A model generated the notes under the pieces. It searched no databases. It was not told where the DNA came from and saw nothing but the letters and a program-made list of their open reading frames with translations. 64,000 nt of DNA from an uncultured Gammaproteobacteria bacterium (GTDB taxonomy: Bacteria; Patescibacteriota; Patescibacteriia; UBA1558; GWA2-36-10). Below are positions 1 to 54,707 of this stretch, one piece after another. The number at the start of each line of letters is the position of its first letter. Within the stretch, counting starts at the first letter, position 1. Position numbers and translations under genes: made by a program. Where the stretch lies: assembly GCA_964515785.1 (NCBI GenBank), contig CAZEWH010000002.1, forward strand, positions 30,182 through 94,181, given 5' to 3'.

Positions 1-307
1 AGAAGTGGTCAAAGATGTTATCTGCATTCTTCGTGAAGATGAGTTGGATACTGGTGGTACAGCGTCTTATACTTGTCGTGATCTTATGCGAGCAGGCGCT
101 TACTTTGTAGAGTTGGTAGTAACTCACATGAAGTGTTCACCCACTTGGAAGCGCAAAATAGTTCGTAACAGTCCTTTTCATAGGATCTATGGTGGTGACA
201 CCATATATCGTGAGTACCAGGATCGAACTGGTGGTTTGGTAGTTGATATCAGTACTGATGTCATCATTGCCGAAAAATTGGCTGAGGTTCTTGATTCTCT
301 AGAATAA
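1..307 (+). CDS. C-terminal fragment of a hypothetical protein; the ORF is open to the window start (GTG at 5 is only the first in-frame start codon, codon 2-4 upstream is sense)
   Basis: Open frame from position 2 to TAA at 305-307. About 45% GC against ~30% for core genes. Followed by a hairpin terminator. Product not recognised. Confidence 0.35.
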   Translation, partial: EVVKDVICILREDELDTGGTASYTCRDLMRAGAYFVELVVTHMKCSPTWKRKIVRNSPFHRIYGGDTIYREYQDRTGGLVVDISTDVIIAEKLAEVLDSLE

Positions 308-346: not shown

Positions 347-970
347 TCAATGAACTCTGAAATCAAAAGGTACTGAGGTCGTGGTCTTGACCGGCTGATT
401 GCGTTGTTTACCAGGCTTGAACTTCCATTTCCAAGCAGCTCTGATGGCTTCATCAACCAGCGTTTGTGGAGCAGTAGTGCTCAAGACTTCGACACCAAAG
501 ACTTTGCCTCGTTCATCGACCATGATCAGGACCATGACCAATCCCTCCATGGCAGCTTCTCGAGCCATTTCAGGATAACGGGGTTTGGCCTTGTAGGTGA
601 CAACTGGTGCTTCATCAAAGGCATAAAAGGTTTTGGGACCTTCTAGCTTACCCATGTCTCTTGGCAGAGGCATGTCGTCCAGATTATCCCAGCTGGTGTC
701 TTCGATAGTTTCGTCGTCTGAAGCATCGTCAGAGACTATCATTTGGTATGGCACCTTGGGCATCTTGATTTCCTGCGGCATAGGCGGGATTTCAATGTCG
801 TCAGGAATATCGACCATTTCCATGGTTTCTTGTTCAAGATGATAGGGGGTTGGTCTAAATTCTGGAGTAAAGGTGAAGGCTGATGTTAGCAATAAGACTG
901 CCAACAGACCACAAAAGATCACAATTTTTCTGTAACCTTTTTTGATTTTCTGTTGCTTAGTCATAATCAT
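347..970 (-). CDS. TonB C-terminal domain protein (energy transducer TonB-like): N-terminal membrane anchor, Pro-rich acidic linker, TonB_C-like C-terminus
   Basis: N-terminal hydrophobic anchor (IVIFCGLLAVLLLTSAF). Pro/Glu/Asp-rich spacer (IPPMPQEIKMPKVP). C-terminus YPEMAREAAMEGLVMVLIMVDERGKV...FDFRV, typical of the TonB C-terminal fold. Higher GC than the core. Confidence 0.6.
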   Translation of the reverse strand: MIMTKQQKIKKGYRKIVIFCGLLAVLLLTSAFTFTPEFRPTPYHLEQETMEMVDIPDDIEIPPMPQEIKMPKVPYQMIVSDDASDDETIEDTSWDNLDDMPLPRDMGKLEGPKTFYAFDEAPVVTYKAKPRYPEMAREAAMEGLVMVLIMVDERGKVFGVEVLSTTAPQTLVDEAIRAAWKWKFKPGKQRNQPVKTTTSVPFDFRVH

Positions 971-1147: not shown

Positions 1148-1459
1148 TCAGAGCTGTCCTTGCTGACGATCATAGACCATGCAGGGGAAATCTCCGGGCA
1201 GGTCGATTTGCATGTCGATGCCGTTTGTCATCGTGACATGCATAGAGACATGAGTAGGATGGTCGAGCTGCCAGTCACAGAGACTGGCATATCGCAGCCA
1301 GATTTCCTCGTCATTGATATCACCAGATTCTGCCATAGCCACTTTGATGATCATGGATTTGTCAGGGTCCAGATCAAGCTCGGCCAGGGTGGTGATAGTG
1401 AAGAAACCGTCGTCTGTGTTCCTCTGAAGCATTTCGCGAGCCTGATTGTAGGGATACAT
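1148..1459 (-). CDS. Hypothetical protein (103 aa), acidic, no TM segment
   Basis: AGGAGA Shine-Dalgarno 6 nt upstream of the ATG (revcomp of 1462-1472). Its own terminator at 1098-1128. Higher GC. The overlapping + ORF 1130..1489 lacks these signals. Confidence 0.45.
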   Translation of the reverse strand: MYPYNQAREMLQRNTDDGFFTITTLAELDLDPDKSMIIKVAMAESGDINDEEIWLRYASLCDWQLDHPTHVSMHVTMTNGIDMQIDLPGDFPCMVYDRQQGQL

Positions 1460-1735: not shown

Positions 1736-3757
1736 GTGTTATCTATAAAAAAGATAGCTTTATTTAGCATATTTTCTTTGCTAATAGCTAATATAGCGTA
1801 TGGTTTTTCTCAAGACTATACACCAGAAGATCCAAGTTTATATCATCAGACAGCTTATTTTGATTTGATGAATATAAAACCAAGCTGGTCCAATGATCAT
1901 CAAATAAATAAAGAAATAGTTATAGCTGTTTTAGACTCTGGTGTAGATTTAGATCATCCTGATTTGCTCAACAATCTCTGGAAAAATACTGGAGAAATAC
2001 CAGGCGATGGCATAGACAATGACGAAAATAGTTATATTGATGATATAGATGGCTGGGATTTTATGTCCAGTGACAATAGTCCTGAACCAGATTTGACAGA
2101 AGGATATGACAAAACTGCAGTCAATCATGGTACAGTAGTAGCTGGTATTATTGCAGCTACTGCCAATGATCAAGGTATTGTTGGTATTACTCCTCAAGCC
2201 AAAATAATGCCACTCAAAATTTTGGACGAAACAGGTAAAGGAAATACCTTGGTTTTATCTCAAGCAATTGACTATGCTGTAGAAAATGGTGCTGACATTA
2301 TAAATTTGAGTTTAGTAGGAGATACTTTTACTGAGCATTTAAATGAAGCTATTGCTAATGCTTATAATAATGGTGTGATGATTATTGCTGCTTCTGGTAA
2401 TGAAGATGAAGATGGATTAAATTTAGACATTGATCCGCGTTATCCTGTCTGTGATATAGAAGGTATAAATAGAGTTTTGGGAGTAGCAGCTGTAGATCAA
2501 GATCTAAAACTAACTGAATTTTCAAATTTTGGAAAAGAGTGTATTGATATATCTGCTCCTGGTACTGGTTTTTATTCAACAAATTTTCAAAAAGCTAGTA
2601 CTACAGATTTTCAAACTTATTATTCCAATGGTTGGAATGGTACTTCAGTCGCCGCACCAGTGATTTCTGCAACCGCTGCTCTTATCAAAATGAATTATCC
2701 TGAGCTACGACCTTTTGATATTTATAATATTTTGACAGACAGTACTAAAAGTTTGCAAGCTGCCAATCCTACTCATTATCTTGAGATGGGTACTGGTTTG
2801 ATAGATATTGGTGCAGCTTTAAACTTGGCAAATGATTATGCAAATCAAGCTATTAGGATAGTGGTGGCACCACAAAAGGATCTGGCTCCTGAGATTTTGG
2901 TCATGGATACCAAAGGAAATTTACAGAATTCTTGGCTAGCTTATAGTGAACATTTCAAAGGCGGCGTAAATGTAGCTATAGGTGATGTACATGGAGATGA
3001 TGCTCAAGAGGTTGTTACTGCTCCCAAAAAAGGCGGCGGACCACATATTAGAGTTTTTGATAGTAGGGGCAATATGATTTCAGAATTTTTTGCCTATATG
3101 GCTAGTTTTCATGGAGGAGTCAATATTGCTGTAGCTGATGTAAACAATGACGGTATAGACGAAATTATTACTGCTCCAGGGCCAGGCGGCGGACCACATA
3201 TAAAAGTTTTTGATAAATCTGGTAAAATGTTGACAGAATTTTTTGCTTATAGTGCTAGCTTTGATGGAGGAGTAAATGTAGCCACTGGTGATGTCAACAA
3301 TGACGGTGTTGATGAAATAGTTTTGGCACCTTATAGTAATTATAGCCCACATATAAAAGTTTTTAATAATAAACGTGAACTAAAAGGTAGTTTTATGGCT
3401 TTTGATAGATCTATGACTAGTGGTATAAATATTACTATTGGTGATGTCAACAATGATCAATGGCCAGAGATTGTAGCTACTCCACGTACAGGTCATGCTC
3501 CTGACATAAAATTATTTAGTCTCAAAGGTCGAGACAAAGGAGGATTTTTACCTTATAGTCAATATTTGACAAGTGGTATTGAAATTGTAGCTAGTGATAT
3601 TACTGGTGATGGACGACCAGAGATTATTGCTTTGCCAAACAAAGGCGGAGCTGCTCTACTAAAAGTTTATGATTATAATGGTTTAGAAAAAAATAGTCTT
3701 TATTTACGTAGTCCAGAAGACAAAAATGGTTACAATTTTGGTATCTTAGGTAAATAA
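1736..3757 (+). CDS. Secreted subtilisin-like serine protease (peptidase S8) fused to a C-terminal FG-GAP/beta-propeller repeat region
   Basis: GTG start. Signal peptide (IALFSIFSLLIANIAYG). Catalytic D (VLDSGVDLDHPDL), H (NHGTVVAGIIAA) and S (GTSVAAPVISATAAL) motifs. Six to seven repeats of GGVNVAxGDVNNDGxDEIVxAP...PHIKVFD typical of FG-GAP. Confidence 0.85.
   Translation: MLSIKKIALFSIFSLLIANIAYGFSQDYTPEDPSLYHQTAYFDLMNIKPSWSNDHQINKEIVIAVLDSGVDLDHPDLLNNLWKNTGEIPGDGIDNDENSYIDDIDGWDFMSSDNSPEPDLTEGYDKTAVNHGTVVAGIIAATANDQGIVGITPQAKIMPLKILDETGKGNTLVLSQAIDYAVENGADIINLSLVGDTFTEHLNEAIANAYNNGVMIIAASGNEDEDGLNLDIDPRYPVCDIEGINRVLGVAAVDQDLKLTEFSNFGKECIDISAPGTGFYSTNFQKASTTDFQTYYSNGWNGTSVAAPVISATAALIKMNYPELRPFDIYNILTDSTKSLQAANPTHYLEMGTGLIDIGAALNLANDYANQAIRIVVAPQKDLAPEILVMDTKGNLQNSWLAYSEHFKGGVNVAIGDVHGDDAQEVVTAPKKGGGPHIRVFDSRGNMISEFFAYMASFHGGVNIAVADVNNDGIDEIITAPGPGGGPHIKVFDKSGKMLTEFFAYSASFDGGVNVATGDVNNDGVDEIVLAPYSNYSPHIKVFNNKRELKGSFMAFDRSMTSGINITIGDVNNDQWPEIVATPRTGHAPDIKLFSLKGRDKGGFLPYSQYLTSGIEIVASDITGDGRPEIIALPNKGGAALLKVYDYNGLEKNSLYLRSPEDKNGYNFGILGK
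2918..3686 (+). repeat. Tandem coding repeats (~150 nt unit) of the FG-GAP propeller blades inside the S8 protease gene
   Basis: Near-identical DNA stretches, e.g. ggcggcggaccacatattagagtttttgat (about 3036) and ggcggcggaccacatataaaagtttttgat (about 3186). Protein blades 2 and 3 are >70% identical. Confidence 0.6.
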
Positions 3758-15638: not shown

Positions 15639-15914
15639 GTGATATCATTATTATGTTGCTTTATTAAATTTTTGTCAATTAAAATTATGAAAAAATTAAT
15701 TACTAGTCAGTTTATTATTTTGCTATTAGGCACTTTGTTTGCCTGGGGAAATTTTGCTTATGAATTATTTATTTGGTTACAAGACAAAAATTCAGAGTTA
15801 GGCTGTACTCCTGGGATTACCAATCCGTTTTTAACACCTTGTTTTTTTGGAGCCTTATTTTTTACAGCTGCTTTTGTGTTTAGTGCTATAATACTCAAAA
15901 AATATAAGAAATAA
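15639..15914 (+). CDS. Small membrane protein (91 aa, 3 hydrophobic segments), hypothetical
   Basis: AT-rich; hydrophobic helices; followed by a terminator hairpin. Confidence 0.4.
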   Translation: MISLLCCFIKFLSIKIMKKLITSQFIILLLGTLFAWGNFAYELFIWLQDKNSELGCTPGITNPFLTPCFFGALFFTAAFVFSAIILKKYKK

Positions 15915-15920
15915 AAAGAA

Positions 15921-15946
15921 CCCCTCAAAAGATTTGAGGGGTTATA
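15921..15946. terminator. Bidirectional intrinsic terminator (cccctcaaa-agat-ttgagggg)
   Basis: 8-9 bp GC stem with an A-run upstream and T-rich downstream. Lies between convergent genes 15639..15914(+) and 15950..16723(-). Confidence 0.6.
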
Positions 15947-15949
15947 GAA

Positions 15950-16723
15950 TCAAGAGCGCTGACGAGCAGGTACTAGCTTGAGTAGCTTGACCGAGATCAG
16001 CCAGTAGTTGAGTGCACCCCAGACAGCGCCAATAGTAGCGCCGAGTAGAGGATTGATCGTAAAGTAGCCGATAGCCGCACCAATGGCAGCGTCAATGCCG
16101 CAGAGCAGGCGCAGATCCGAGTGGATCAACTTGAAGAGTGTGACAGTGAACTTGACGGCAAACTTGACGAGCAAGATTGTGCCAAAGAAAATGCCACGTG
16201 GCAGTGAGTAGAAAAAGACGCGAAAAGGATTGCTGTATTTGATCATGGCTTTGAATAATTTGGTGGCGCTTTCATCAGCAGTAGCAAACAGACTACCAAA
16301 AAGTTGGCTAAACAATAAAATGATACATGCTATTGAAATAAGCATGGCTTTGAGTGACATAAACTGCGAGGTAGCTGAGACATCAAAGTCAGACATGATA
16401 TAGCCTAAACCGTATAGCCACATGCAGATTACGAGCATAAGCTGCACACCACGCAGGAAGCTACGCCATTCCTTGATCATGAACTTAAAGTACATAATCA
16501 AGCCACCGAGGCTGTATTTCCAGGTTTCGCGTCTGGCCGTGCGCCAGGCAGTCGGAATATTGCGGATGACCTCTGCAGGATCGTAGGCTAAATAGCCGGC
16601 CAATCCGCCAGCTAACAAGCCGATCCACCAGAAATTGGCAGTGAACTGCAGAGCCACCATAGCCCCGATAAAGGCGCCAGCAAAGACTGCTAGCATGACT
16701 TTAATTACGTTTCGTGTGTGCAC
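15950..16723 (-). CDS. Polytopic membrane protein (257 aa), hypothetical, in a compositionally distinct island
   Basis: GTG start preceded by an AAGGAGG SD. About 50% GC (against ~30% for neighbours). At least 6 hydrophobic helices. No recognisable family. Confidence 0.5.
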   Translation of the reverse strand: MHTRNVIKVMLAVFAGAFIGAMVALQFTANFWWIGLLAGGLAGYLAYDPAEVIRNIPTAWRTARRETWKYSLGGLIMYFKFMIKEWRSFLRGVQLMLVICMWLYGLGYIMSDFDVSATSQFMSLKAMLISIACIILLFSQLFGSLFATADESATKLFKAMIKYSNPFRVFFYSLPRGIFFGTILLVKFAVKFTVTLFKLIHSDLRLLCGIDAAIGAAIGYFTINPLLGATIGAVWGALNYWLISVKLLKLVPARQRS

Positions 16724-16862
16724 AACGTGCCTCCTTTGTGAAAGTACAGATTTCGAACTATGCTGAAATTAACATAATATGCTTATTTTGTCAATTTATA
16801 TAGATTTAGCTGCTCTAGATTTTTTTATTGGATTATGTTAAAATAACTACACATTATCAGCT

Positions 16863-23809: not shown

Positions 23810-24586
23810 ATGGAAAAAATATTTATAAAAAATAGAAATAATAAGAAACTGTGTGTTTTGTTAGAAAAATCTGACAAGCAAGTAGGCTTGGTTTTTATTG
23901 AACATGGTTTAGGAGGATTTAAAGAACAAAAACATATCCAAGTAATGGCTGATAGTTTTAAAGAAGCTGGTTATACTGTGGTTAGATTTGATACAACTAG
24001 TACTTTAGGGGATAGTGAAGGAAGCTATGAAGATGCTACACTGACAAATTATTATGAAGATCTAGAAGATGTCATCAAATGGGCTAGTGAACAATCATGG
24101 TATCAAGAACCATTTGTGTTAGCAGGGCATAGTTTGGGTAGTTTTAGTATAATTCTATATACTCAAAAGCATCTTAACAAAGTTAAAGCACTGGCTCCAA
24201 CTTCAACTGTAATTTCTGGTAAAATAAGTAATCAAAGATACGATAAAAATAAAGTCAAAGAGTGGGAAGAAACAGGTTGGCGGATTGAACAAAGTGCTTC
24301 TAAGCCAGGAGTTGTAAAAAAGTTAAAATGGCCAAATTTTAGAGATGATATCATTAAATATGATGTATTGCCAGAAGCTCACAAGATTACTCAGCCGATT
24401 TTATTGATTACTGGCAGCAAGGATTATGGTACACCTTACGAAGATCAGAAGTTGCTCTATGATAAAGTATCTGGTGATAAAGAACTGCATGTTATAGAAG
24501 GCTCTGGTCATAATTTTAGAACACCAGAACACTTACAAGAGCTACGAGAGTATTTTGATAATTGGATTAAAAATAAATTAAAATAA
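23810..24586 (+). CDS. Alpha/beta-fold hydrolase (dienelactone-hydrolase/esterase-like), paralog 1
   Basis: GHSLG nucleophile elbow; C-terminal D and H (GSGHNF). Confidence 0.7.
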   Translation: MEKIFIKNRNNKKLCVLLEKSDKQVGLVFIEHGLGGFKEQKHIQVMADSFKEAGYTVVRFDTTSTLGDSEGSYEDATLTNYYEDLEDVIKWASEQSWYQEPFVLAGHSLGSFSIILYTQKHLNKVKALAPTSTVISGKISNQRYDKNKVKEWEETGWRIEQSASKPGVVKKLKWPNFRDDIIKYDVLPEAHKITQPILLITGSKDYGTPYEDQKLLYDKVSGDKELHVIEGSGHNFRTPEHLQELREYFDNWIKNKLK

Positions 24587-24591
24587 ATAAT

Positions 24592-25371
24592 ATGGAAAAA
24601 CTTTTTATTGACAATAGACATGGAAACAAACTATCTGTTTTGGTAGAACAACCTGAAATAAAAGCTAAGGGTTTGGCTTTTGTGATGCACGGTTTGAGTG
24701 CTCATAAAGAGCAAGTAAGTAAACAAGCCATGGTTGATGTTTTATTGGTGCATGGTTATACAACTGTCCGTTTTGATACTACCAATACTTTTGGAGAAAG
24801 TGATGGAGATTATGCAGCAGCGACCCTGACAAATTATTATGAAGATCTAGAAGATGTCATAAAATGGGCTAGTGAGCAAGATTGGTACCAAGAGCCATTT
24901 GTATTAGCAGGGCGTAGCTTGGGTTCTATTAGTATTGTTTTATATACAATCAATAATCCTGACAAAGTCAAAGCTTTGGTACCGACTTCTTGTATAGTAA
25001 TAGGCTCTGTCATCAATCAAAGATATGAAGGTGCTAGTAGAGAAGATTGGGAAGCATCTGGCTGGGAAATAGAGCCTGGCTTTGACAAACCTGATTTTAT
25101 CAATAGATTGGATTGGGAAAATTTTAGTACTGATCTGGCAAAATATGATATTTTATCAGAAGCTCATAAAATTACGCAGCCGGTTTTGTTGGTGACTGGT
25201 GCCAATGACTTGGTGACTACACCAGCTGATCAACAAGCTTTTCATGATAAACTGCAAGGTGATCGCGAATTGCATATTTTGGAAAATTGCGGCCATAGTT
25301 TTGATGGTCATTTTGTTTTAGAAGAATTTAAAAAGATTCTTGACAAATGGTTGAGAAATAAAGTCAAATAA
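24592..25371 (+). CDS. Alpha/beta-fold hydrolase, tandem paralog 2
   Basis: About 50% identical to the previous gene (ATLTNYYEDLEDVIKWASEQ.WYQEPFVLAG.SLGS conserved). GRSLG elbow; CGHSF. Confidence 0.7.
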   Translation: MEKLFIDNRHGNKLSVLVEQPEIKAKGLAFVMHGLSAHKEQVSKQAMVDVLLVHGYTTVRFDTTNTFGESDGDYAAATLTNYYEDLEDVIKWASEQDWYQEPFVLAGRSLGSISIVLYTINNPDKVKALVPTSCIVIGSVINQRYEGASREDWEASGWEIEPGFDKPDFINRLDWENFSTDLAKYDILSEAHKITQPVLLVTGANDLVTTPADQQAFHDKLQGDRELHILENCGHSFDGHFVLEEFKKILDKWLRNKVK

Positions 25372-30410: not shown

Positions 30411-30436
30411 AAACCCCAGAGATGGGGTTTTTTGTT
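30411..30436 (+). terminator. Intrinsic terminator of the rplM-rpsI unit (aacccca-gaga-tggggtt + TTTTTT)
   Basis: 7-bp GC stem with a GAGA loop, followed by a T-run. Confidence 0.6.
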
Positions 30437-30439
30437 TTA

Positions 30440-30497
30440 TACCCCCACTGTCCTTCGGACATCTCCCCCTAGATTAGGGGGAGACAGAGAGGGGGTA
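30440..30497. other. GC-rich multi-hairpin element (~58 nt): outer stem taccccc/gggggta enclosing a UUCG-tetraloop hairpin gtccttcggac and a hairpin ctcccccta-gat-tagggggag. Possible small RNA or attachment-site structure.
   Basis: All three stems verified by reverse complement. GC-rich in an AT-rich spacer. Immediately abuts the 22-bp direct repeat. Confidence 0.3.
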
Positions 30498-30513
30498 TTA
30501 TTTTAATAAAAAA
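30492..30513. repeat. Direct repeat copy 1 (ggggtattattttaataaaaaa, 22 nt)
   Basis: Exact 22-mer also present at 30998-31019; overlaps the 3' end of the structured element. Confidence 0.7.
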
Positions 30514-30540
30514 ATCCCTCACACAATTGTGTGAGGGAAA
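30508..30540 (-). terminator. Intrinsic terminator for the minus-strand 107-aa gene (gggttttccctcacacaattgtgtgagggattttttt on minus)
   Basis: Perfect 8-bp stem ccctcaca/tgtgaggg followed by a T-run on the minus strand, directly after the stop at 30545. Confidence 0.6.
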
Positions 30541-30544
30541 ACCC

Positions 30545-30868
30545 TTAGGTTGTTGTAGGGAAGGCGAAGACGCCGATTGTTTGGAAGAGCGCTTCGATGA
30601 TTTCAAAGGGAACTGGTTTCTTTTGACCACTTTCCCAGTCGGGGGTGTACAGCTCTTTGACCTCCAGGGTCACCTCATATGTCGGTAAGGCCGTTTCCTT
30701 GCCGTGGGGTTGCTTATTGGGGTTGCTTTTTGAACTGACGATCTTGATGATATAGCGTTGATGATTTTTTTCAGCAGACTCTGGTTCATGGTATAGATTC
30801 CAATTGCCTTGCAAAAAAACATGAAGATCGTTGAGTTGTGCGACCGAAAGACTGGTTTTTAGCAACAT
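30545..30868 (-). CDS. Hypothetical protein (107 aa from the ATG at 30868; the ORF track extends to a TTG at 30919), cargo of a direct-repeat-flanked mini-island
   Basis: Perfect AGGAGG SD 6 nt upstream of the ATG (MLLKTSLSVAQL...). About 45% GC. Own terminator. No recognisable family. Confidence 0.5.
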   Translation of the reverse strand: MLLKTSLSVAQLNDLHVFLQGNWNLYHEPESAEKNHQRYIIKIVSSKSNPNKQPHGKETALPTYEVTLEVKELYTPDWESGQKKPVPFEIIEALFQTIGVFAFPTTT

Positions 30869-30928
30869 GATTTTCCTCCTGATTACAGGCACCGCCTGCG
30901 GTTGTCTTGGCACCGCCAAGATCAGGTT

Positions 30929-30953
30929 ATGAAGCCTTAAAAAGGCTTCATAG
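30929..30953. other. Perfect hairpin tatgaagcc-ttaaaaa-ggcttcata upstream of the 107-aa gene, next to a ggcaccgcc x2 direct repeat
   Basis: 9-bp perfect inverted repeat. ggcaccgcctgcggttgtcttggcaccgcc sits immediately 5' (plus coordinates 30888-30917). Confidence 0.3.
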
Positions 30954-30997
30954 TATTATATGATACATCTTTTATTATGTCAATTTTGCTAACAGTA

Positions 30998-31019
30998 GGG
31001 GTATTATTTTAATAAAAAA
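30998..31019. repeat. Direct repeat copy 2 (ggggtattattttaataaaaaa, 22 nt)
   Basis: Exact match to 30492-30513. The two copies bracket about 485 bp containing the 107-aa gene. Confidence 0.7.
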
Positions 31020-31066
31020 GAGACCCGTTGATTCGGATCTCAGTTAGGACGGCAGACATGCCAGAC

Positions 31067-31282
31067 CTAAGATTTGAGGAGCTTGAGGAGCTGCTCGCGT
31101 TGGAGATGCGTATTCAGCATGGCAGTGAATGTGGCTAGGAAAATCAGGGCAATTGCCATGAAGGCGATAGTCAGCCAGAGATTGACGTCATTTTGCATAT
31201 CCATCCAGACGTCCAGTTGTATGATCGCCATGAAGACGAAAAATAGAAAAGCGAATATCACGATGGTCATGTTGGCTTTCAT
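31067..31282 (-). CDS. Small 2-TM membrane protein (71 aa from the SD-preceded ATG; the track starts at 31303)
   Basis: GGGAGGG SD 5 nt upstream of the ATG (MKANMTIVIFAFLFF...). Two hydrophobic helices. Higher GC. Confidence 0.45.
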   Translation of the reverse strand: MKANMTIVIFAFLFFVFMAIIQLDVWMDMQNDVNLWLTIAFMAIALIFLATFTAMLNTHLQREQLLKLLKS

Positions 31283-31406
31283 TTTTGCCCTCCCACGGGC
31301 CATTAGAATTGAAGAACGGATGAATTATTCTATAATAGCACATATTTAGTGTTTTGTCAATAGTAGTAAACTATTATTTTATAGGCTATTTTGCTATAAT
31401 TAGAGC

Positions 31407-38323: not shown

Positions 38324-39151
38324 ATGGATTTATCAATTGTTATATTAAATTATAAAAACAAAAACCTTATCAAAGAATTATTAAAAAACTTTGCTGAGTT
38401 AAAATTGCATTATAATTATGAAATTATTGTAGTTGATAATAATTCTAGAGACGGAGTAGAGGAGATAGCCAAAAAATTTAATGTAAAATTTATCCAGAGC
38501 AAAAAAAACAAAGGTTTTGCTGCTGGCAATAATATTGGTATTAAGCAAGCTTTAGGAAAATATATTATAATTTGTAATCCTGATTTGGCTATTTTGTCTG
38601 ATGCTATTCAGGTCATGTATAATTATATGGAAATTCATCCAGAAGTAGGTCTAGCTGGCCCACGACTGATCAATGCTGACAAATCAATCCAATATTCTTG
38701 TACCCGATTTCCTGATTGGCATTTGCCCATCTATCGTCGTACAAGTTTGGGTAAGGGTCGCCGTGGCCAGGCTTGGCTGGATAATTATTTGATGAAAGAT
38801 ATTAATCATAAACAAAATTTTTATACTCCAGCTTTATTTGGTGCTTGTATGATTATTAGACAATCTGCCTTAGAAAAAGTTGGCTTATTAGACGAACGTT
38901 ATTTTATGTATATGGAAGATCTTGATTGGTCACGAAGATTTTGGGAAAATAATTATAAAGTAGCTTATATTGGACAAGCTGAGATTATTCATTTGCATCG
39001 TCGCGAATCTGCAGAGTCAAATATCTTCAAATCTTTATTTGCTAAATCTGCTCGCTATCATATTTTTAGTTTTATAAAATATCTCAAAAAATTTAAAGGT
39101 AAACAATTACCTCGTGTCATCTCTACTGAAACGGAGAGATCTGAAAGATAG
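38324..39151 (+). CDS. GT2 family glycosyltransferase
   Basis: LSIVILNYKN ... VVDNNSRDG ... ICNPDL motifs. Confidence 0.8.
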   Translation: MDLSIVILNYKNKNLIKELLKNFAELKLHYNYEIIVVDNNSRDGVEEIAKKFNVKFIQSKKNKGFAAGNNIGIKQALGKYIIICNPDLAILSDAIQVMYNYMEIHPEVGLAGPRLINADKSIQYSCTRFPDWHLPIYRRTSLGKGRRGQAWLDNYLMKDINHKQNFYTPALFGACMIIRQSALEKVGLLDERYFMYMEDLDWSRRFWENNYKVAYIGQAEIIHLHRRESAESNIFKSLFAKSARYHIFSFIKYLKKFKGKQLPRVISTETERSER

Positions 39152-39188
39152 ATTTTTCGACTTTGCTTGAAATGACAATAAAAATAAA

Positions 39189-39209
39189 AAACTCCTCGTT
39201 GTGAGGAGT
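39189..39209. terminator. Hairpin aactcctc-gttg-gaggagtt; terminator of the minus-strand small-protein pair and probably also of the + GT operon
   Basis: 8-bp stem with a T-rich tract on the minus side (revcomp of 39170-39188). Confidence 0.5.
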
Positions 39210-39409
39210 TAATACAAAGGCTTTCTGGATATCCATTGCTTTTGGAATAATTTCCAAAATTTTTTGACAGGTTCACCAAATAAGATAACAGCTCCTATGA
39301 TTGGTAATACTATCTTATACATCCACCACAGTGGTTCAAAGAGGAAACTGAGGAACATCAGAAAAAGTAAAGTAGTTATGATCAGGGCTGGCAAGAAGTG
39401 TTTGAACAT
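39209..39409 (-). CDS. Small 2-TM membrane protein (66 aa), hypothetical
   Basis: Hydrophobic helices ALIITTLLFLMFLSFLF and IVLPIIGAVILFG. Higher GC than the core. Confidence 0.45.
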   Translation of the reverse strand: MFKHFLPALIITTLLFLMFLSFLFEPLWWMYKIVLPIIGAVILFGEPVKKFWKLFQKQWISRKPLY

Positions 39410-39412
39410 ATA

Positions 39413-39580
39413 TCAATCCCTTCCAAGTTGAGTAGCCAAATATGGCGGTGTGAATATAATCCCAAGGACTGCTAAGATTATTAAACCAACTACCCAAGTA
39501 GCTAGTATGCCTACAGTTAAGAAGGCAAAAAGACTAGAGATCATAAAGAATGCTTTGAACAGAGACAGTATGGCACGCAT
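39413..39580 (-). CDS. Small 2-TM membrane protein (55 aa); not in the ORF track. Co-transcribed upstream partner of the 66-aa protein.
   Basis: Hand translation gives MRAILSLFKAFFMISSLFAFLTVGILATWVVGLIILAVLGIIFTPPYLATQLGRD. AGGGGGG SD upstream. Its stop lies 3 nt before the next ATG. Confidence 0.4.
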   Translation of the reverse strand: MRAILSLFKAFFMISSLFAFLTVGILATWVVGLIILAVLGIIFTPPYLATQLGRD

Positions 39581-39618
39581 TTTGCCCCCCTTTCAGTGAA
39601 GAGAACTAAGAACAAAAT

Positions 39619-39647
39619 AAGCCTAGCAAGCTATAGATTTTTTGTCA
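39619..39647 (-). promoter_or_regulatory. Candidate promoter TTGACA-N17-TAGGCT for the small-protein pair (minus strand)
   Basis: Exact TTGACA (revcomp of 39642-39647) overlapping the T-run of the upstream terminator; 17-nt spacer. Confidence 0.35.
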
Positions 39648-39680
39648 AAAAAATCCCCCGACCAAGTTTCAGTCGAGGGG
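39648..39680 (-). terminator. Intrinsic terminator of the 141-aa gene (cccctcgac...gtcggggg + TTTTTTT on minus)
   Basis: GC stem with one bulge followed by a 7-nt T-run on the minus strand. Confidence 0.55.
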
Positions 39681-40094
39681 TTTGTATATTCTGCGTAGCC
39701 TAGATATTAGCGCTACGCTAGGAACTTTCTTAGATATTAATTCCCAGTCTTCTAGGGAACAATCACCCAAGTGAAGTAATTCACGAGCAGCTTGCTCGCG
39801 TAATTCTGGTACTAGGTCAATAATACATCTTAAATGTAATTTGATCGGGCAATCTTGTAGAAGAACTAGGGCTGCATCCTTGCGAAAATCTGGAACAGTT
39901 TCGATAATAGCACCGATTTGCCGAAAATTAGGTTTACGCAGCTTTTGATGATGATAGCGGCGCAAAAGCTCTTTGGCAGATTGGCGAGCATGAAATCTGT
40001 TTCCGTAGACCAATTTCTTGAGATAGAAATTGGAGTAAAAGTGGTGTAACCTCCAGTTTTGCCACCAGTCTCGAAGTTTTTCGAGTGTGTACAT
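39669..40094 (-). CDS. Hypothetical basic protein (141 aa)
   Basis: AGGGAG SD 7 nt upstream of the ATG. About 45% GC. No TM segment. Rich in R/H/L. No family recognised. Confidence 0.5.
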   Translation of the reverse strand: MYTLEKLRDWWQNWRLHHFYSNFYLKKLVYGNRFHARQSAKELLRRYHHQKLRKPNFRQIGAIIETVPDFRKDAALVLLQDCPIKLHLRCIIDLVPELREQAARELLHLGDCSLEDWELISKKVPSVALISRLRRIYKPLD

Positions 40095-40243
40095 GGTGAA
40101 CTCCCTATTTGTAGACGAAAAGAATGTGCTAGAGAATACTTATTAGTATATCATATTTATAGCGTTTTGTCAACGTATAGTGTTTTGTGGTTGATTTTTA
40201 GCCCAAAATTAGCTATCATTATTGTATAATTTAATTAGATTTT

Positions 40244-46199: not shown

Positions 46200-47165
46200 A
46201 TGGCTAAAACAAAGCAAAGCAAACAAAAGCATCATCTTCCCCTCTTGGACGAGTTCTTGGAGAATATTCAGTCTAATAACTACTCCCCAGAGACTGTTTA
46301 CAATTATGAACGGGACTTAAATACTTTTGCCAATTTTTTGAACGAAGATATTAAGACAGCTTTTAATAAACTTACTAAGCGATCAATTATAAAGTTTAAG
46401 GCTTACCTCTCCTCTACTTCCAGACGGACAGCCCTACATGAAGCTGGTCAAAGAAAATTATCAAGTTATAGTATCAATAGAATTTTGTCGGCTTTGAGGT
46501 CTTATCTCAAATTTTTGGTTGATATGGATCAACATCCACCTATTACAGCTGATGCAGTCAAGATGCTTAAAACAGAAAAGAAGTATGGTCAGGTACCAGA
46601 GATGACTGAACTTATCAAACTTATAGAAGCACCAAATAAATTTGAAAAAGATTCAAATATAGCTTTACGTAATCGAGCTATGTTAGAAACTTTATTTGCT
46701 ACTGGTATGCGTATTTCTGAATTATTATCTCTCAAGCGTCAGCAACTTGATCAATCTGGTCGGATTTATGTGATGGGTAAAGGTAAAAAACAACGTTTTG
46801 TTTATTTGACTCCTCGCGCTATCAAACATATTTCTGCTTATCTTAAGACTAGACATGATGATTCACCTTTTTTGTTTATTCCTTATCGTGGTCGCAACAA
46901 TGCTAATAAAAACAAAAAAATATCAACTAATTATTTGCAATACAAAATAAAACGCTATCGTGAGTTGTTGTCTATAAATATTCCAATTTCAGCTCACTCT
47001 ATTAGACATAGTTTTGCTACTTATTTGGCAGAGTCAGGTGCTAATCCAGCTGCTATCCAGATTTTACTTGGTCACGAGTCTTTGGATACTACCACTCGTT
47101 ATGTACATGCTTCTGATAGATATGCAGAAAAAAGTCATACTAAATATCATCCACTTAAATCATAA
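46200..47165 (+). CDS. Tyrosine site-specific recombinase (XerC/XerD family)
   Basis: R...HxxR...Y catalytic set: RNRAMLETLFATGMRISEL, HSIRHSFATYL, LLGHESLDTTTRYVH. Confidence 0.8.
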   Translation: MAKTKQSKQKHHLPLLDEFLENIQSNNYSPETVYNYERDLNTFANFLNEDIKTAFNKLTKRSIIKFKAYLSSTSRRTALHEAGQRKLSSYSINRILSALRSYLKFLVDMDQHPPITADAVKMLKTEKKYGQVPEMTELIKLIEAPNKFEKDSNIALRNRAMLETLFATGMRISELLSLKRQQLDQSGRIYVMGKGKKQRFVYLTPRAIKHISAYLKTRHDDSPFLFIPYRGRNNANKNKKISTNYLQYKIKRYRELLSINIPISAHSIRHSFATYLAESGANPAAIQILLGHESLDTTTRYVHASDRYAEKSHTKYHPLKS

Positions 47166-47178
47166 AATAAAAACCCCG

Positions 47179-47268
47179 CTAGTTGGCAGGGTTGTAGATC
47201 CAGAGCACATAAGCTGATCTGATCAGGATCAGCGAAGCTGCTAGGATAAAAGCTATGGCTGGAACCAT
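47179..47268 (-). CDS. Tiny hydrophobic ORF (29 aa), weakest of three
   Basis: MVPAIAFILAASLILIRSAYVLWIYNPAN. No clear SD. Listed for completeness. Confidence 0.2.
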   Translation of the reverse strand: MVPAIAFILAASLILIRSAYVLWIYNPAN

Positions 47269-47335
47269 AATTTTTTTGGATACTTTGATGTCAATGCATT
47301 TGACTTTGTTGTGTTGCTCCAAAATGTTTCTCCGT

Positions 47336-47440
47336 TTATTTGAATGTAATTAAGATCATAGCTACTATAGCTAGAGCTATCAGGATGACCGTTGCTCTTG
47401 GTTTTATTAGCCACCTGAGCAGTTCTCCTAAGAGATACAT
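47336..47440 (-). CDS. Tiny hydrophobic peptide (34 aa) with a strong SD
   Basis: AAGGAGAT SD 6 nt upstream of the ATG; MYLLGELLRWLIKPRATVILIALAIVAMILITFK (single TM helix). Confidence 0.35.
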   Translation of the reverse strand: MYLLGELLRWLIKPRATVILIALAIVAMILITFK

Positions 47441-47483
47441 GTGATTATCTCCTTGTGCAAGGAACAGTGAACTAAAGTAGTTT

Positions 47484-47512
47484 AAATAAAAAAGGGAGTC
47501 TTGTCAACTCCC
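47484..47512 (-). terminator. Intrinsic terminator after the 26-aa peptide gene (gggagt-tgacaag-actccc + TTTTTTATTT on minus)
   Basis: 6-bp perfect stem followed by a T-run on the minus strand, 12 nt after the stop codon. Confidence 0.45.
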
Positions 47513-47524
47513 AGGAAAAAGGGC

Positions 47525-47605
47525 TTAGACAGCAGTGAAATGGGCTGCCAGAGCCATGACTATGAAAAAACCGAGCCAAGATAAGAAAAAGATTCTGCGA
47601 AACAT
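47525..47605 (-). CDS. Tiny hydrophobic peptide (26 aa) with its own consensus promoter, SD and terminator
   Basis: TAGGAGAA SD 6 nt upstream of the ATG; MFRRIFFLSWLGFFIVMALAAHFTAV. TTGACA-N17-TATACT promoter 55-80 nt upstream. Confidence 0.4.
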   Translation of the reverse strand: MFRRIFFLSWLGFFIVMALAAHFTAV

Positions 47606-47658
47606 GTTGTGTTCTCCTAAGGTTGTGGTGCAGTTTCTCCCTGTTATCAATGATATTA

Positions 47659-47687
47659 AGTATAGCATATTTTATATATTTTGTCAA
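47659..47687 (-). promoter_or_regulatory. Consensus sigma70-type promoter TTGACA-N17-TATACT (minus strand) driving the 26-aa peptide gene
   Basis: TTGACA is the revcomp of 47682-47687; TATACT is the revcomp of 47659-47664; exact 17-nt spacer. Confidence 0.45.
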
Positions 47688-47693
47688 GGATAT

Positions 47694-47735
47694 AAAACAA
47701 CCTCGAAGGTTTTTAAACCTTCGAGGTTGTTTAGT
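47694..47735. terminator. Strong hairpin (16-bp perfect stem aacaacctcgaaggtt/aaccttcgaggttgtt), terminator of the M23 peptidase gene
   Basis: Verified perfect inverted repeat with a 4-nt loop, directly downstream of the minus-strand stop at 47741. Confidence 0.7.
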
Positions 47736-47740
47736 AGATT

Positions 47741-54263: not shown

Positions 54264-54707
54264 ATGGAGGGACCAGTAGTAGTTTTTTGGTTTTTGGTTG
54301 TCAGCGCTATTCTTTGGATAATTTTTGGCGATTTTATAAAATCGAACAAGAAATCCACTTCATCAGTCAAACAGAAGGAGGAGACTGTGAACAGTAATCA
54401 GTTACCGGTTGTGACACCGGACATTTTGCCAGCTCGTCGGTCTATTCTGGATTCGTATGGTTGGAATAATACGCCAACTGTGATATCATCTCCGGAACCA
54501 GAAGCAGTCTTAGCTAGTCATAATCCGCGTATAGCTCTTAAGGTTTTGAAAACTGCTCAGCAGGGTGAGTTTGCTCGCATTACTGCTCTGCAGATGGCTG
54601 GTGTAGCTAGTCAGGCCTTGCTCGTCAATCCACAGGTTCGTGAGATTGAGTTCAATCTCAAAGTTAGTGGTGGCTTTAAAGCCAAGGGCAAGGTGAGGTT
54701 ACGGTGA
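54264..54707 (+). CDS. Hypothetical protein (147 aa) with an N-terminal TM anchor
   Basis: AAAGGAG SD; N-terminal hydrophobic helix (VVFWFLVVSAILWIIFG). About 44% GC. No family recognised. Confidence 0.45.
   Translation: MEGPVVVFWFLVVSAILWIIFGDFIKSNKKSTSSVKQKEETVNSNQLPVVTPDILPARRSILDSYGWNNTPTVISSPEPEAVLASHNPRIALKVLKTAQQGEFARITALQMAGVASQALLVNPQVREIEFNLKVSGGFKAKGKVRLR

What the first reader, a model, noticed from the sequence alone, without database searches (positions are those of the whole stretch)
15915..16860. Compositionally distinct GC-rich mini-islands, antisense to host operons, each with its own SD, promoter and terminator (exemplar: 257-aa membrane protein)
The core genes are about 28-33% GC. 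At least six short segments are 44-50% GC by eye: 1-1700, 15915-16860, 30437-31400, 39150-40240, 47166-47740 and 54130-54770. Each carries only hypothetical or small membrane proteins. Each is bounded by GC-stem intrinsic terminators. Their start codons sit behind near-perfect SDs (AAGGAGG, AGGAGG, GGGAGGG, AGGGAG), which are stronger than those of most core genes. Nearly all are on the minus strand inside long plus-strand operons. The exemplar here is a 257-aa polytopic membrane protein with a GTG start and no recognisable family. The segments are interspersed and they use host-type TTGACA promoters. Taken together with the GC, SD and terminator observations, this looks like a family of acquired or selfishly maintained cassettes rather than an assembly chimera.
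Basis: partly seen in the sequence, partly recalled or inferred. Interest (0 to 1): 0.75.

Follow-up and report, generated by a model that had tools for sequence, protein, structure and literature searches.

The report
GC-rich, Shine-Dalgarno-led mini-genes in CPR bacterium
A small AT-rich bacterium of the candidate phyla radiation carries short stand-alone genes that differ from all its other genes in both codon composition and translation-start signal, and the example gene belongs to a large uncharacterised membrane-protein family that keeps these two oddities across the whole phylum.

Summary
Core genes have third-codon-position GC (GC3) of 0.215 ± 0.03. They are not RNA genes, not chimeras, and not related to one another.

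A stronger contrast emerged. All 10 GC-rich genes have strong Shine-Dalgarno (SD) sequences. None of the 59 AT-rich genes does (p = 3e-12), and several operon-first core genes look leaderless.

"Acquired cassette" fits island 3, which two sibling genomes lack, and parts of islands 1, 4 and 6. It does not fit the exemplar. That gene belongs to a Patescibacteria-specific family of at least 1,885 clusters and sits at the same locus in three sibling genomes.

Across 46 loci, host GC3 ranges from 0.21 to 0.75 but the family gene stays near 0.49 (slope 0.21; control 0.93). In 79 loci, 94% carry a strong SD. In the window's genus the conserved ends co-diverge with the flanking genes, yet fix AT→GC synonymous changes about twice as often.

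Elsewhere the gene is mosaic, with conserved ends and an exchangeable middle.

The likely cause is recombinational exchange with GC-biased repair. Selection tied to SD-dependent translation is the close rival. Function is unknown; the fold is weakly channel-like.

The parts
15950..16723 (-). Exemplar CDS: 257 aa, GTG start. Polytopic helical membrane protein with an N-terminal glycine-zipper hairpin, a hypervariable middle, and a conserved C-terminal HSDxRLLCGxDAAIG block plus glycine-zipper hairpin. GC3 0.574.
16730..16736 (-). Shine-Dalgarno AAGGAGG, 6 nt upstream of the GTG start. Duplex energy with the anti-SD is -11.3 kcal/mol.
16766..16794 (-). Promoter of the exemplar: -35 TTGACA (16789-16794), 17-nt spacer, TGT-TAATTT extended -10 (16766-16771). 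The -10 assignment is inferred by reading the sequence.
15919..15943 (.). Bidirectional intrinsic terminator hairpin (11 bp, 5 GC pairs) with T-runs on both strands. It ends the exemplar and the convergent small membrane-protein gene (longest ORF 15639-15914; start as called in public assemblies 15687).
347..970 (-). Island 1: TonB_C-domain protein, 207 aa, with an N-terminal membrane anchor. GC3 0.47, SD AAGGAGGU. 68% identical to the sibling ortholog, against 90% for the flanking S8 peptidase.
1148..1459 (-). Island 1: 103-aa soluble protein, GC3 0.61. 92% identical to part of a 163-aa gene in sibling 4. Its promoter lies at 1643-1671.
30441..31383 (-). Island 3, a lineage-specific insertion absent from siblings 1 and 3. 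It holds two tandem units:
- Promoter (~31332-31360), 71-aa two-helix membrane protein (31067-31282), hairpin (31020-31041).
- Consensus promoter TTGACA-17-TATAAT (30955-30983), 106/124-aa protein (30545-30865/30919), hairpin (30516-30537).
Each unit is followed by the exact 22-mer GGGGTATTATTTTAATAAAAAA (30492-30513 and 30998-31019). The island also contains a very stable Y-shaped element at 30441-30497.
39669..40094 (-). Island 4: 141-aa soluble protein, GC3 0.38, SD UAGGGAGU, -35 box at 40168-40173. Orthologs in siblings 1 and 3 are 66% and 63% identical, with GC3 0.42 and 0.385.
39209..39580 (-). Island 4: two small membrane proteins, 55 aa (39413-39580, SD AAGGGGGG) and 66 aa (39209-39409). 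They share a promoter (-35 box at 39643-39648) and a terminator (~39186-39212). Both are absent from sibling 1. The 55-aa gene has a 59%-identical match in sibling 3.
47166..47740 (-). Island 5: three tiny hydrophobic ORFs (47 aa at 47525-47668; 34 aa at 47336-47440; 47 aa at 47179-47322). Two or three promoters and two terminators accompany them. They are conserved at 48-57% identity in sibling 1.
54264..54707 (+). Island 6: 147-aa protein with an N-terminal membrane anchor, GC3 0.41, SD AAAGGAGC, -35 box at 54183-54188. The positional ortholog in sibling 1 is only 38% identical and has GC3 0.54.

Best explanation
The window comes from a Patescibacteria (CPR) chromosome.

Shown: its core genes are very AT-rich at synonymous sites and start translation without a Shine-Dalgarno sequence. 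Operon-first genes look leaderless, and internal genes have A/T-rich start regions.

Shown: scattered between the core operons are short stand-alone transcription units. Each has a consensus promoter, a 30-70-nt leader with a strong SD, one or two small and mostly membrane-protein ORFs, and a hairpin terminator. These are the only GC3-rich genes in the window. They are the fast-evolving, partly gained-and-lost fraction of the genome and are unrelated to one another.

Shown: the exemplar encodes a member of a large Patescibacteria-specific family of about 250-aa helical membrane proteins. The family has conserved glycine-zipper ends and a hypervariable middle, and its fold is weakly channel-like. 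The gene has been resident at this locus throughout the genus.

Shown: its GC-rich codons are not a decaying import signature. Synonymous sites in the gene turn over about as fast as in neighbouring genes, but with a GC-favouring fixation bias. Across the phylum the family sits near 50% GC3 whatever the host composition.

Inferred, most likely driver: the gene is a recombination-prone, diversifying locus. Alleles, especially the variable middle, are exchanged between lineages with crossovers in the conserved ends. Its composition then reflects the phylum-wide allele pool plus GC-biased repair of recombination heteroduplexes, and not the host's mutational equilibrium.

Inferred: the strong SD, own promoter and own terminator make such units expressible in any genomic context.

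Shown: island 3 and parts of islands 1, 4 and 6 are outright gains or losses of units of this kind.
For: Composition:
- Core GC3 is 0.215 ± 0.028, and the islands are the only outliers.

SD dichotomy:
- 10/10 GC-rich genes have a strong SD against 0/59 AT-rich genes, p = 3e-12.
- -10 boxes lie 5-7 nt before the ATG at 31407, 46200, 49012, 51796 and 55087.

Family size and identity:
- 64 word-indexed hits at 29-64% identity, and 1,885 clusters at 50% identity by exhaustive profile search.
- Conserved ends and variable middle.

Residence at the locus:
- Same locus in three siblings, with flanking proteins 85-92% identical against 57-66% for the target.
- C-terminal dS is 0.73-0.94, matching the flanks' 0.52-1.1, with dN/dS 0.10-0.15.
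- mraY adjacency is also seen in L041, whose MraY is only 49% identical.

Not decaying:
- Passive decay would need ancestral GC3 of 0.98, 1.17 and 0.73.
- At strictly synonymous sites of the conserved ends, GC→AT : AT→GC is 20:17. The expected GC→AT fraction is 0.87 on host equilibrium (p = 1e-6) or 0.74 on the flank-derived empirical null (p = 0.013).
- The per-site AT→GC rate is 0.55, against 0.28 in the flanks.

Phylum-wide decoupling:
- Slope 0.17-0.21 and r 0.23-0.26 in 22 and 46 loci, against a control slope of 0.93 and r 0.88.
- GC3 at conserved fourfold sites is 55% in AT-rich hosts and 54% in GC-rich hosts, with no site-specific codon conservation.

Exchange and mosaicism:
- L057 and L060 have gene ends 93% identical in nucleotides, a divergent middle, and unrelated 7-kb upstream flanks.
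- In L029 and L060 the family gene is 65% identical, while two shared neighbours are 58% and 44% identical and host GC3 is 0.25 against 0.43.
- In L097 and L102 the flanks are 92-93% identical and the gene 75%.
- The middle segment's dS is saturated in the window's genus.
- No neighbour is conserved across 69 loci.

Gain and loss:
- Island 3 is absent in two siblings, and island content varies.

Literature:
- Transfer within Patescibacteria is documented (PMC12455944).
Against: - GC-biased conversion alone cannot explain why the gene is GC-poorer than its neighbours in GC-rich hosts. Allele-pool mixing has to be added.
- The C-terminal end has the same dS as the flanks in the window's genus. 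That fits plain vertical descent and gives no direct sign of recombination there.
- For the exemplar, the GC elevation stops sharply at the CDS boundary. The leader plus promoter is 0.28 GC, equal to host intergenic DNA. This fits codon-level selection better than conversion tracts.
- No recombination breakpoints were formally mapped. The saturated dS in the middle may partly reflect poor alignment.
- Three-taxon parsimony is biased, as the flanks show.
- The L041 synteny could be a coincidence; I estimate roughly 5% for that pair.
- No vector was found: no viral contigs, phage families or mobility genes.
- The protein's function is unknown.
Confidence: 0.42

Rival explanations
1. Translation-linked selection. 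Patescibacteria keep a small class of SD-led genes that are translated by a different initiation route from the leaderless or SD-less bulk. The codon composition of these genes is held near 50% GC by selection on mRNA structure or stability or on elongation kinetics. SD and GC3 are therefore co-selected features of one regulatory class. The logic resembles the single strongly SD-led gene, rpsU, in SD-blind Bacteroidia.
For: - Perfect SD/GC3 association in the window: 10/10 against 0/59.
- The SD is conserved in 94% of 79 family loci, while neighbouring genes mostly lack one. The SD is therefore under purifying selection.
- GC3 at conserved fourfold sites is 54-55% in both AT-rich and GC-rich hosts.
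- The family's attractor (about 0.52) lies above the mean host GC3 (about 0.41).
- A GC-favouring fixation bias operates in place while the gene descends vertically.
- The GC elevation of the exemplar is confined to the CDS.
- AT-rich accessory genes in siblings lack an SD.
- Precedent: PMC7797042, PMC9976891, PMC13000453.
Against: - No mechanism is known that would demand about 50% GC3.
- No particular codons are conserved.
- Ribosomal-protein genes show no codon shift, so ordinary translational selection looks weak in this organism.
- This model does not explain the mosaic L057/L060 pattern or the similar alleles found in unrelated contexts.
- The 16S anti-SD and the state of the ribosomal proteins could not be examined.
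- The other island genes could not be traced across the phylum, because the protein searches were exhausted.
Confidence: 0.3
2. Classical reading. Each island is a horizontally acquired cassette from a GC-richer, SD-using donor. It is slowly ameliorating toward host composition, and nothing maintains its GC content.
For: - Atypical GC3, a canonical SD, promoter and terminator, and location between operons.
- Island 3 and some small genes are present or absent among siblings.
- The TonB_C protein is an unexpected gene for a CPR bacterium.
- Moderately elevated islands (141 aa, TonB) need only plausible ancestral GC3 of about 0.55-0.7 by the decay factors.
- Up to 13% of Patescibacteria genomes has been attributed to horizontal transfer (PMC12455944).
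Against: For the exemplar:
- The required ancestral GC3 values are 0.98, 1.17 and 0.73, which are mutually inconsistent and partly impossible.
- Sibling 1's copy is gaining GC.
- Synonymous changes in the vertically co-diverged ends are balanced.
- The anomaly recurs in 20 of 21 AT-rich hosts and reverses in GC-rich hosts.
- The best homolog outside the genus is only 39% identical, in a database of about 5.8 billion non-redundant proteins.

More generally:
- All 12 orthologs of 5 island genes examined in siblings remain GC3-elevated.
Confidence: 0.2
3. The GC-rich patches are structured non-coding RNA genes or dual-coding regions, and the ORFs are incidental.
For: - GC-rich patches in AT-rich genomes are often RNA genes.
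- Antisense ORFs occur in islands 1 and 3.
- A very stable structured element exists at 30441-30497.
Against: - No Rfam family and no tRNA in the window.
- The exemplar has protein-level conservation over its full length in more than 1,800 clusters.
- Codon-position GC pattern and dN/dS of 0.1-0.3 are typical of coding sequence.
- Synonymous sites turn over freely, without site-specific conservation.
- No second ORF of at least 60 aa overlaps the exemplar.
Confidence: 0.03
4. Assembly chimera or contaminating reads spliced into the contig.
For: - Abrupt composition changes.
- Several short-read contigs end inside island 3.
Against: - The same junctions recur at 99.8-100% identity in independent assemblies from many samples and sources.
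- Sibling species carry orthologous GC-rich genes at the same positions.
Confidence: 0.01

Closest known systems
Horizontally acquired genomic islets and ORFan cassettes, detected by atypical composition (Lawrence-Ochman amelioration framework; Patescibacteria islands in PMC12455944)
   Same: Atypical GC and codon usage, insertion between core operons, mostly hypothetical proteins, and presence or absence among close relatives (island 3; parts of islands 1, 4 and 6).
   Different: Single-gene size. No integrase, tRNA or att borders. Orthologs persist at the same position with GC3 undiminished. The exemplar is a phylum-wide family whose composition is independent of the host in both directions.
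Phage 'morons': independent promoter-gene-terminator units of deviant GC inserted between prophage genes (own knowledge: Hendrix, Juhala and colleagues, around 2000)
   Same: The same architecture: a self-contained transcription unit with its own promoter and terminator and a different GC content, wedged between co-oriented genes, often on the opposite strand.
   Different: The units lie among chromosomal housekeeping operons (dcw cluster, ribosomal proteins), not in a prophage. There are no PHROG hits and no relatives in 2.9 million viral contigs.
Bacteroidia rpsU/bS21 system: a rare strongly SD-led gene in a lineage whose ribosomes ignore SDs (PMC7797042, PMC9976891, PMC13000453)
   Same: A genome whose bulk genes lack an SD, with a small minority carrying a strong canonical SD that selection maintains.
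   Different: Here the minority is several unrelated small, mostly membrane proteins, not a ribosomal protein. It is coupled to deviant codon composition. Sequestration of the anti-SD and differential translation are untested in Patescibacteria.
Hypervariable surface-protein genes with conserved ends and laterally exchanged central regions, such as flagellin fliC and type IV pilins (own knowledge)
   Same: Conserved N- and C-terminal segments frame a hypervariable middle. Alleles are mosaic (L057/L060). The gene diverges far faster than its flanks, and its composition is decoupled from the host.
   Different: A polytopic membrane protein, not a filament subunit. The conserved ends, not the middle, are the most GC3-rich. 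Recombination is inferred, not mapped.
GC-biased gene conversion in bacteria (own knowledge: Lassalle et al. 2015)
   Same: A GC-favouring fixation bias at synonymous sites of a recombining gene in an AT-rich genome.
   Different: The magnitude is far larger than the few-percent effects reported: GC3 0.57 against 0.22. It also cannot explain the GC-poor state of the gene in GC-rich hosts.
TRIC cation channels (PDB 5wtr, 5h36)
   Different: Only about 40% of the model aligns, at 14-15% identity. There is no sequence-profile match. The internal-repeat and trimer features were not established.

Membership tests
Classical horizontally acquired genomic island | Composition deviates from the host genome | tested here: met
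   GC3 z = 4-13 for all six islands.
Classical horizontally acquired genomic island | Present or absent among close relatives | tested here: inconclusive
   Met for island 3, which is absent in siblings 1 and 3, and for some genes of islands 1, 4 and 6. Not met for the exemplar, the 141-aa gene, the 147-aa gene, TonB or the island 5 ORFs, all of which have positional orthologs.
Classical horizontally acquired genomic island | Mobility hallmarks at the borders (integrase, tRNA, direct repeats) | tested here: not met
   No tRNA in the window. No integrase lies next to islands 1-4 or 6. The Xer-type recombinase gene beside island 5 is conserved at that position in sibling 1. The only repeat is a 22-nt direct repeat inside island 3.
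Classical horizontally acquired genomic island | Composition decaying toward the host (amelioration) | tested here: not met
   For the exemplar, the required ancestral GC3 is 0.73-1.17, and synonymous changes in the co-diverged ends are balanced at 20:17.
Phage moron / prophage cargo | Own promoter and terminator, deviant GC | tested here: met
Phage moron / prophage cargo | Located in a prophage, or has phage homologs | tested here: not met
   Neighbours are dcw-cluster, ribosomal-protein and glycosyltransferase genes. PHROGs gave nothing significant, and no relative was found in the viral contigs.
Integron gene cassette | Promoterless ORF with an attC site, next to an IntI integrase | tested here: not met
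   Each unit has its own promoter. No shared attC-like repeat exists among the islands. No integron integrase is present in the window.
Structured non-coding RNA gene | Match to a known RNA family, or site-specific covariation without coding signal | tested here: not met
   Rfam and ARAGORN found nothing. The exemplar is conserved as a protein, with dN/dS 0.1-0.3 and free synonymous turnover.
SD-led specialised-translation gene (Bacteroidia rpsU type) | Bulk genes of the genome lack an SD | tested here: met
   Median SD duplex energy is 0.0 for 58 core genes, confirmed by reading their upstream sequences. Neighbours in 79 family loci mostly lack an SD.
SD-led specialised-translation gene (Bacteroidia rpsU type) | The gene carries a strong, conserved SD | tested here: met
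   -11.3 kcal/mol in the window. 94% of 79 loci reach -6 kcal/mol or stronger, with a median of -10.8.
SD-led specialised-translation gene (Bacteroidia rpsU type) | Anti-SD sequestered on the ribosome, and the SD-led mRNA translated by a distinct ribosome state | not testable with these tools
   No 16S rRNA in the window, and no expression or structural data.
TRIC channel family | Seven-helix fold with an inverted 3+3 repeat and glycine-kinked pore helices; trimer | tested here: inconclusive
TonB family (island 1, 207-aa protein) | C-terminal TonB_C domain with an N-terminal membrane anchor | tested here: met
   PF03544 E = 8.5e-19 and TIGR01352 E = 1.1e-13. Membrane-like segment at residues 12-36. 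ExbB/ExbD partners were not looked for.

The most novel reading that the evidence does not exclude
Patescibacteria run two translation-initiation regimes in one cell. Bulk genes are leaderless or SD-less. A small, conserved class of stand-alone SD-led genes is exemplified by this membrane-protein family of more than 1,800 clusters. The synonymous composition of that class is held near 50% GC whatever the genome's composition. The SD plus the buffered codon usage would mark a distinct translational regulon, perhaps read by a particular ribosome state, and not foreign DNA.
Probability: 0.3. Interest if true: 0.8.

Novelty: new variant of a known kind. Interest (0 to 1): 0.62.

Why it matters
Atypical GC content is routinely read as evidence of recent horizontal transfer. 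Here a widespread gene family keeps an atypical composition in every host, in both directions, while being inherited vertically within a genus. Composition-based island callers would therefore mislabel it.

I also found no description of the complete coupling between strong SD sequences and GC-rich codons in a genome whose other genes lack SDs. My literature check was limited: only three papers in the held library mention both Shine-Dalgarno and Patescibacteria, and none addresses SD usage.

If the coupling is functional, it gives a directly testable handle on how translation initiation and gene-class regulation work in the uncultivated, ribosome-reduced CPR bacteria. If it reflects recombinational exchange, it identifies a hypervariable membrane protein that is probably exposed to hosts or phages.

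Either way it defines a large uncharacterised membrane-protein family with a clear conserved motif (HSDxRLLCGxDAAIG).

Tried and rejected
1. **RNA-gene explanation.** Rfam at gathering thresholds and ARAGORN found nothing.

2. **Concatenated protein queries.** I joined eight island proteins into one query to save a capped search. The concatenated core-protein query returned only distant subtilase relatives.

3. **Exact-match look-up with ribosomal protein S11 to reach siblings.** It returned only contigs of the same strain. Sibling contigs were reached instead through 90%-identity cluster mates.

4. **Viral origin.** No relative of the family in IMG/VR. No significant PHROG or PADLOC hits; the only ones were weak (phrog_34172, E = 1e-4, for the TonB-like protein; 'E2', E = 1.7e-4, for the 124-aa protein).

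5. **Dual coding or an antisense ORF as the cause of constrained third positions.** No second ORF of at least 60 aa overlaps the exemplar.

6. **Site-specific codon conservation (RNA structure or pause sites).** Codons vary freely at invariant residues.

7. **Ordinary translational selection for high expression.** Ribosomal-protein genes have GC3 of 0.20-0.25, like other core genes.

8. **Strand orientation.** The epimerase gene on the same strand as the exemplar has a normal GC3 of 0.20.

9. **'Island 7' (63603-63845).** This is a wrong-frame artefact of the surface-protein gene that runs off the window.

10. **Within-population variation.** The few differences between same-strain contigs are indels and N-runs in core genes.

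11. **The first three-taxon polarisation over the whole gene.** It was weakened by saturation and parsimony bias. I repeated it on strictly synonymous sites of the unsaturated ends, with an empirical null.

12. **AlphaFold-database fold search.** The library was unavailable.

Full report
**1. The observation**

The window is 33.3% GC. The six named segments measure 0.438, 0.451, 0.427, 0.376, 0.383 and 0.395 GC.

The gene-level signal is much cleaner. Among non-overlapping ORFs, core genes of at least 150 aa have median third-codon-position GC (GC3) of 0.215 with robust sd 0.028. The only ORFs with z > 4 lie in exactly those six segments. A seventh apparent outlier at 63603-63845 is a wrong-frame reading of a large minus-strand surface-protein gene that runs off the window.

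The window has no Rfam family and no tRNA.

The exemplar ORF 15950-16723(-) is present as described:
- 257 aa with a GTG start.
- SD AAGGAGG at 16730-16736.
- -35 TTGACA at 16789-16794.
- An 11-bp bidirectional terminator hairpin at 15919-15943.
- GC3 of 0.574 against 0.19-0.28 for its neighbours.

Independent assemblies from many samples reproduce the island 2 and island 3 junctions at 99.8-100% identity. This rules out a chimera.

**2. What the islands contain**

Island proteins are unrelated to one another by BLASTP. The only DNA similarity between islands is a TTGACA-N17-TATNAT promoter consensus. The -35 motif TTGACAAA occurs 20 times against 6.4 expected and also precedes core genes.

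- Island 1 encodes a true TonB_C-domain protein (PF03544, E = 8.5e-19), a 103-aa protein, and the 3' end of a PRPP-synthetase-like gene.
- The other island proteins have no Pfam, NCBIfam, PHROG or PADLOC family of any significance.
- Eight of the eleven island proteins have membrane-like segments.

**3.

The 58 core genes have a median SD-anti-SD duplex energy of 0.0 kcal/mol. Their upstream regions are simply A/T-rich. Several operon-first genes have a -10 box 5-7 nt before the ATG (31407, 46200, 49012, 51796, 55087), so they look leaderless.

All 10 GC3-rich genes have strong SDs, from -6 to -11.9 kcal/mol. None of the 59 AT-rich genes does (Fisher p = 3e-12). The 71-aa gene's real start is the ATG at 31282.

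AT-rich accessory genes found only in siblings also lack SDs. SD use therefore goes with GC-rich composition, not with being accessory.

**4. Sibling genomes**

I reached four genus-level relatives through exact-protein and 90%-cluster look-ups. Their flanking core proteins are 85-98% identical to the window's.

| Island | Finding in siblings |
|---|---|
| 3 | Absent from two siblings, which have only a 78-nt terminator-promoter spacer. In the window it is two tandem units, each ending in hairpin plus the exact 22-mer GGGGTATTATTTTAATAAAAAA. |
| 4 | The 141-aa gene has orthologs at 63-66% identity (GC3 0.38, 0.42, 0.385). The two small membrane genes are missing or differ. |
| 5 | The tiny ORFs are 48-57% identical. 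|
| 6 | The 147-aa gene is 38% identical to its positional ortholog (GC3 0.41 against 0.54). The sibling carries an extra AT-rich five-gene block there. |
| 1 | TonB is 68% identical, against 90% for the flanking peptidase. The accompanying small genes differ. |

The islands are thus the fast-evolving, partly gained-and-lost fraction of the genome. Every ortholog examined stays GC3-elevated.

**5. The exemplar is not a recent import**

It belongs to a family with 64 word-indexed hits at 29-64% identity, all those named being Patescibacteria. An exhaustive profile search finds 1,885 clusters at 50% identity, of which 833 have E ≤ 1e-30.

In three siblings the gene lies at the same spot, divergent from a 119-aa gene plus mraY and next to an epimerase gene. 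It is 57-66% identical, against 85-92% for the flanks.

By segment:
- C-terminal domain: dS 0.73-0.94, the same as the flanks (0.52-1.1), dN/dS 0.10-0.15, and GC3 0.63-0.81.
- N-terminal domain: dS 1.15-1.48.
- Middle: dS saturated, dN 0.41-0.64.

**6. The GC-richness is not fading**

I used the flanks' fourfold-degenerate sites as a clock. Any GC3 excess should have roughly halved in each lineage. The ancestor would then have needed GC3 of 0.98, 1.17 and 0.73, which are mutually inconsistent and partly impossible.

At strictly synonymous sites of the unsaturated conserved ends, GC→AT against AT→GC changes are 20:17.
- On host equilibrium the expected GC→AT fraction is 0.87 (p = 1e-6).
- On the empirical flank-derived null, which shares the parsimony bias, it is 0.74 (p = 0.013).
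- The per-site AT→GC rate is 0.55, against 0.28 in the flanks.

**7. The anomaly belongs to the family across the whole phylum**

In 22 loci, and then in 46 non-redundant loci with enough flanking sequence, host background GC3 runs from 0.17-0.21 up to 0.75. The family gene stays at 0.49 ± 0.12, with slope 0.17-0.21 and r 0.23-0.26. A random neighbouring gene gives slope 0.93 and r 0.88.

The gene is above its background in 20 of 21 hosts with background below 0.4. It is below its background in 3 of 4 hosts with background above 0.6.

At invariant Gly, Ala and Leu positions the codons vary freely, yet third-position GC is 55% in AT-rich hosts and 54% in GC-rich hosts. Overall composition is held, not particular sites.

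In 79 non-redundant loci, 94% carry an SD of -6 kcal/mol or stronger (median -10.8; AAGGAGGU is the commonest). Only 23% of neighbours do under an equally generous start-choice rule.

**8. Vertical descent or lateral movement? Both**

*Signs of stability:*
- The genus-level synteny.
- A distant relative (L041, MraY 49% identical) also has the gene next to and divergent from mraY-ftsW-murG. I estimate about a 5% chance that this is coincidence.
- No viral relatives.
- No close cross-lineage homolog.

*Signs of exchange:*
- No neighbour is conserved across 69 loci.
- L057 and L060 have gene ends 93% identical in nucleotides, a divergent middle, and unrelated 7-kb upstream regions.
- In L029 and L060 the family proteins are 65% identical, while two shared nearby proteins are 58% and 44% identical and host GC3 is 0.25 against 0.43.
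- In L097 and L102 the flanks are 92-93% identical and the gene 75%.

**9. Interpretation**

The best-supported reading is a recombination-prone, diversifying stand-alone gene. Conserved ends frame an exchangeable middle. Its composition reflects the phylum-wide allele pool plus GC-biased repair, and not the host's mutational equilibrium.

The close rival is selection tied to SD-dependent translation. It is favoured by three results:
- The perfect SD/GC3 coupling.
- The CDS-limited GC elevation of the exemplar: the leader plus promoter is 0.28 GC, equal to the 0.28 of host intergenic DNA.
- The equal GC3 at conserved sites in opposite host types.

Bacteroidia provide a precedent for a rare SD-led gene in an SD-blind background (PMC7797042, PMC9976891, PMC13000453).

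Passive amelioration of an old import fits some of the other islands but not the exemplar. Horizontal transfer and genomic islands in Patescibacteria are already documented (PMC12455944). I found no paper on SD usage in this phylum.

**10. Verdict**

The new elements are three:
- The complete coupling of SD-led initiation with GC-rich codons in an otherwise SD-less genome.
- The host-independent composition of a large uncharacterised membrane-protein family.
- That family's mosaic, hypervariable architecture.

The mechanism is unresolved between two live models, and the protein's function is unknown.

Noticed in passing
window 30441-30497 (minus strand): A GC-rich Y-shaped element lies between the island 3 terminator and the S9 terminator. 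An outer stem UACCCCC/GGGGGUA encloses a CUCCCCC-loop-GGGGGAG hairpin and a GUCC-UUCG-GGAC hairpin. Together with the adjacent terminator it folds at -55.6 kcal/mol (z = -6.7). There is no Rfam match. It is absent from siblings, along with the rest of island 3.
   Followed up: partly
window 30492-30513 and 30998-31019: The exact 22-nt direct repeat GGGGTATTATTTTAATAAAAAA follows the terminator hairpin of each of the two island 3 units (0 expected by chance). A possible 7-nt duplication, TTTTATA, lies at the insertion borders (~30434-30440 and ~31377-31383).
   Followed up: partly
window-wide, e.g. 31407, 46200, 49012, 51796, 55087: Core genes lack Shine-Dalgarno sequences altogether. Several operon-first genes have a -10 box 5-7 nt before the ATG, which implies leaderless mRNAs. 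I found no paper describing this for Patescibacteria.
   Followed up: partly
window 47166-47740: Island 5 holds three tiny hydrophobic ORFs (47, 34 and 47 aa) with two or three promoters and two terminators. They are conserved at 48-57% identity in a sibling. They resemble small membrane peptides or type I toxin-like loci. The adjacent gene 46200-47165 is a Xer-type tyrosine recombinase.
   Followed up: no
window 61461-64000 (minus strand): A large surface-protein gene runs off the window end. Its cluster mate is 1,306 aa, and the sibling version is 1,252 aa with PA14 and DUF4215 domains. It contains 153-nt-spaced Cys-rich repeats. Read in the wrong frame, it mimics a GC-rich island.
   Followed up: yes
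window 2939-3447: Four 153-nt-spaced repeats lie inside the 673-aa S8 peptidase gene (FG-GAP-type repeats).
   Followed up: no
window 23810-24586 and 24592-25371: Two tandem paralogous alpha/beta-hydrolase genes, 78% identical over a 237-nt repeat segment. Gene calls in same-strain contigs are disrupted here by runs of N.
   Followed up: no
L005 2912-4912: Sibling 1 carries a 666-aa gene with no Pfam domain between murG and murC. It is AT-rich (GC3 0.19), lacks an SD, and is absent from the window. This shows that not all variable genes are GC-rich.
   Followed up: partly
L022 7098-9675: At the island 6 position, sibling 1 has an extra AT-rich block of five genes (two NUDIX, a methyltransferase and two unknowns) that the window lacks.
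   Followed up: partly
window 5-307 and L044 6378-7490: The PRPP-synthetase-like gene next to the TonB gene also has raised GC3: 0.34 for the window fragment and 0.39 in sibling 4. It is a metabolic gene sharing the island's composition.
   Followed up: no
L033 7998-8795: In one AT-rich Patescibacterium (host GC3 0.17) the family gene is split into 167-aa and 80-aa ORFs. This could be a pseudogene, a frameshift or a sequencing error.
   Followed up: no
window 30657-30897: Four independent short-read contigs of the same strain end inside island 3 (at 30657, 30840 and 30897 twice). This may reflect coverage or strain heterogeneity at this lineage-specific insertion.
   Followed up: no
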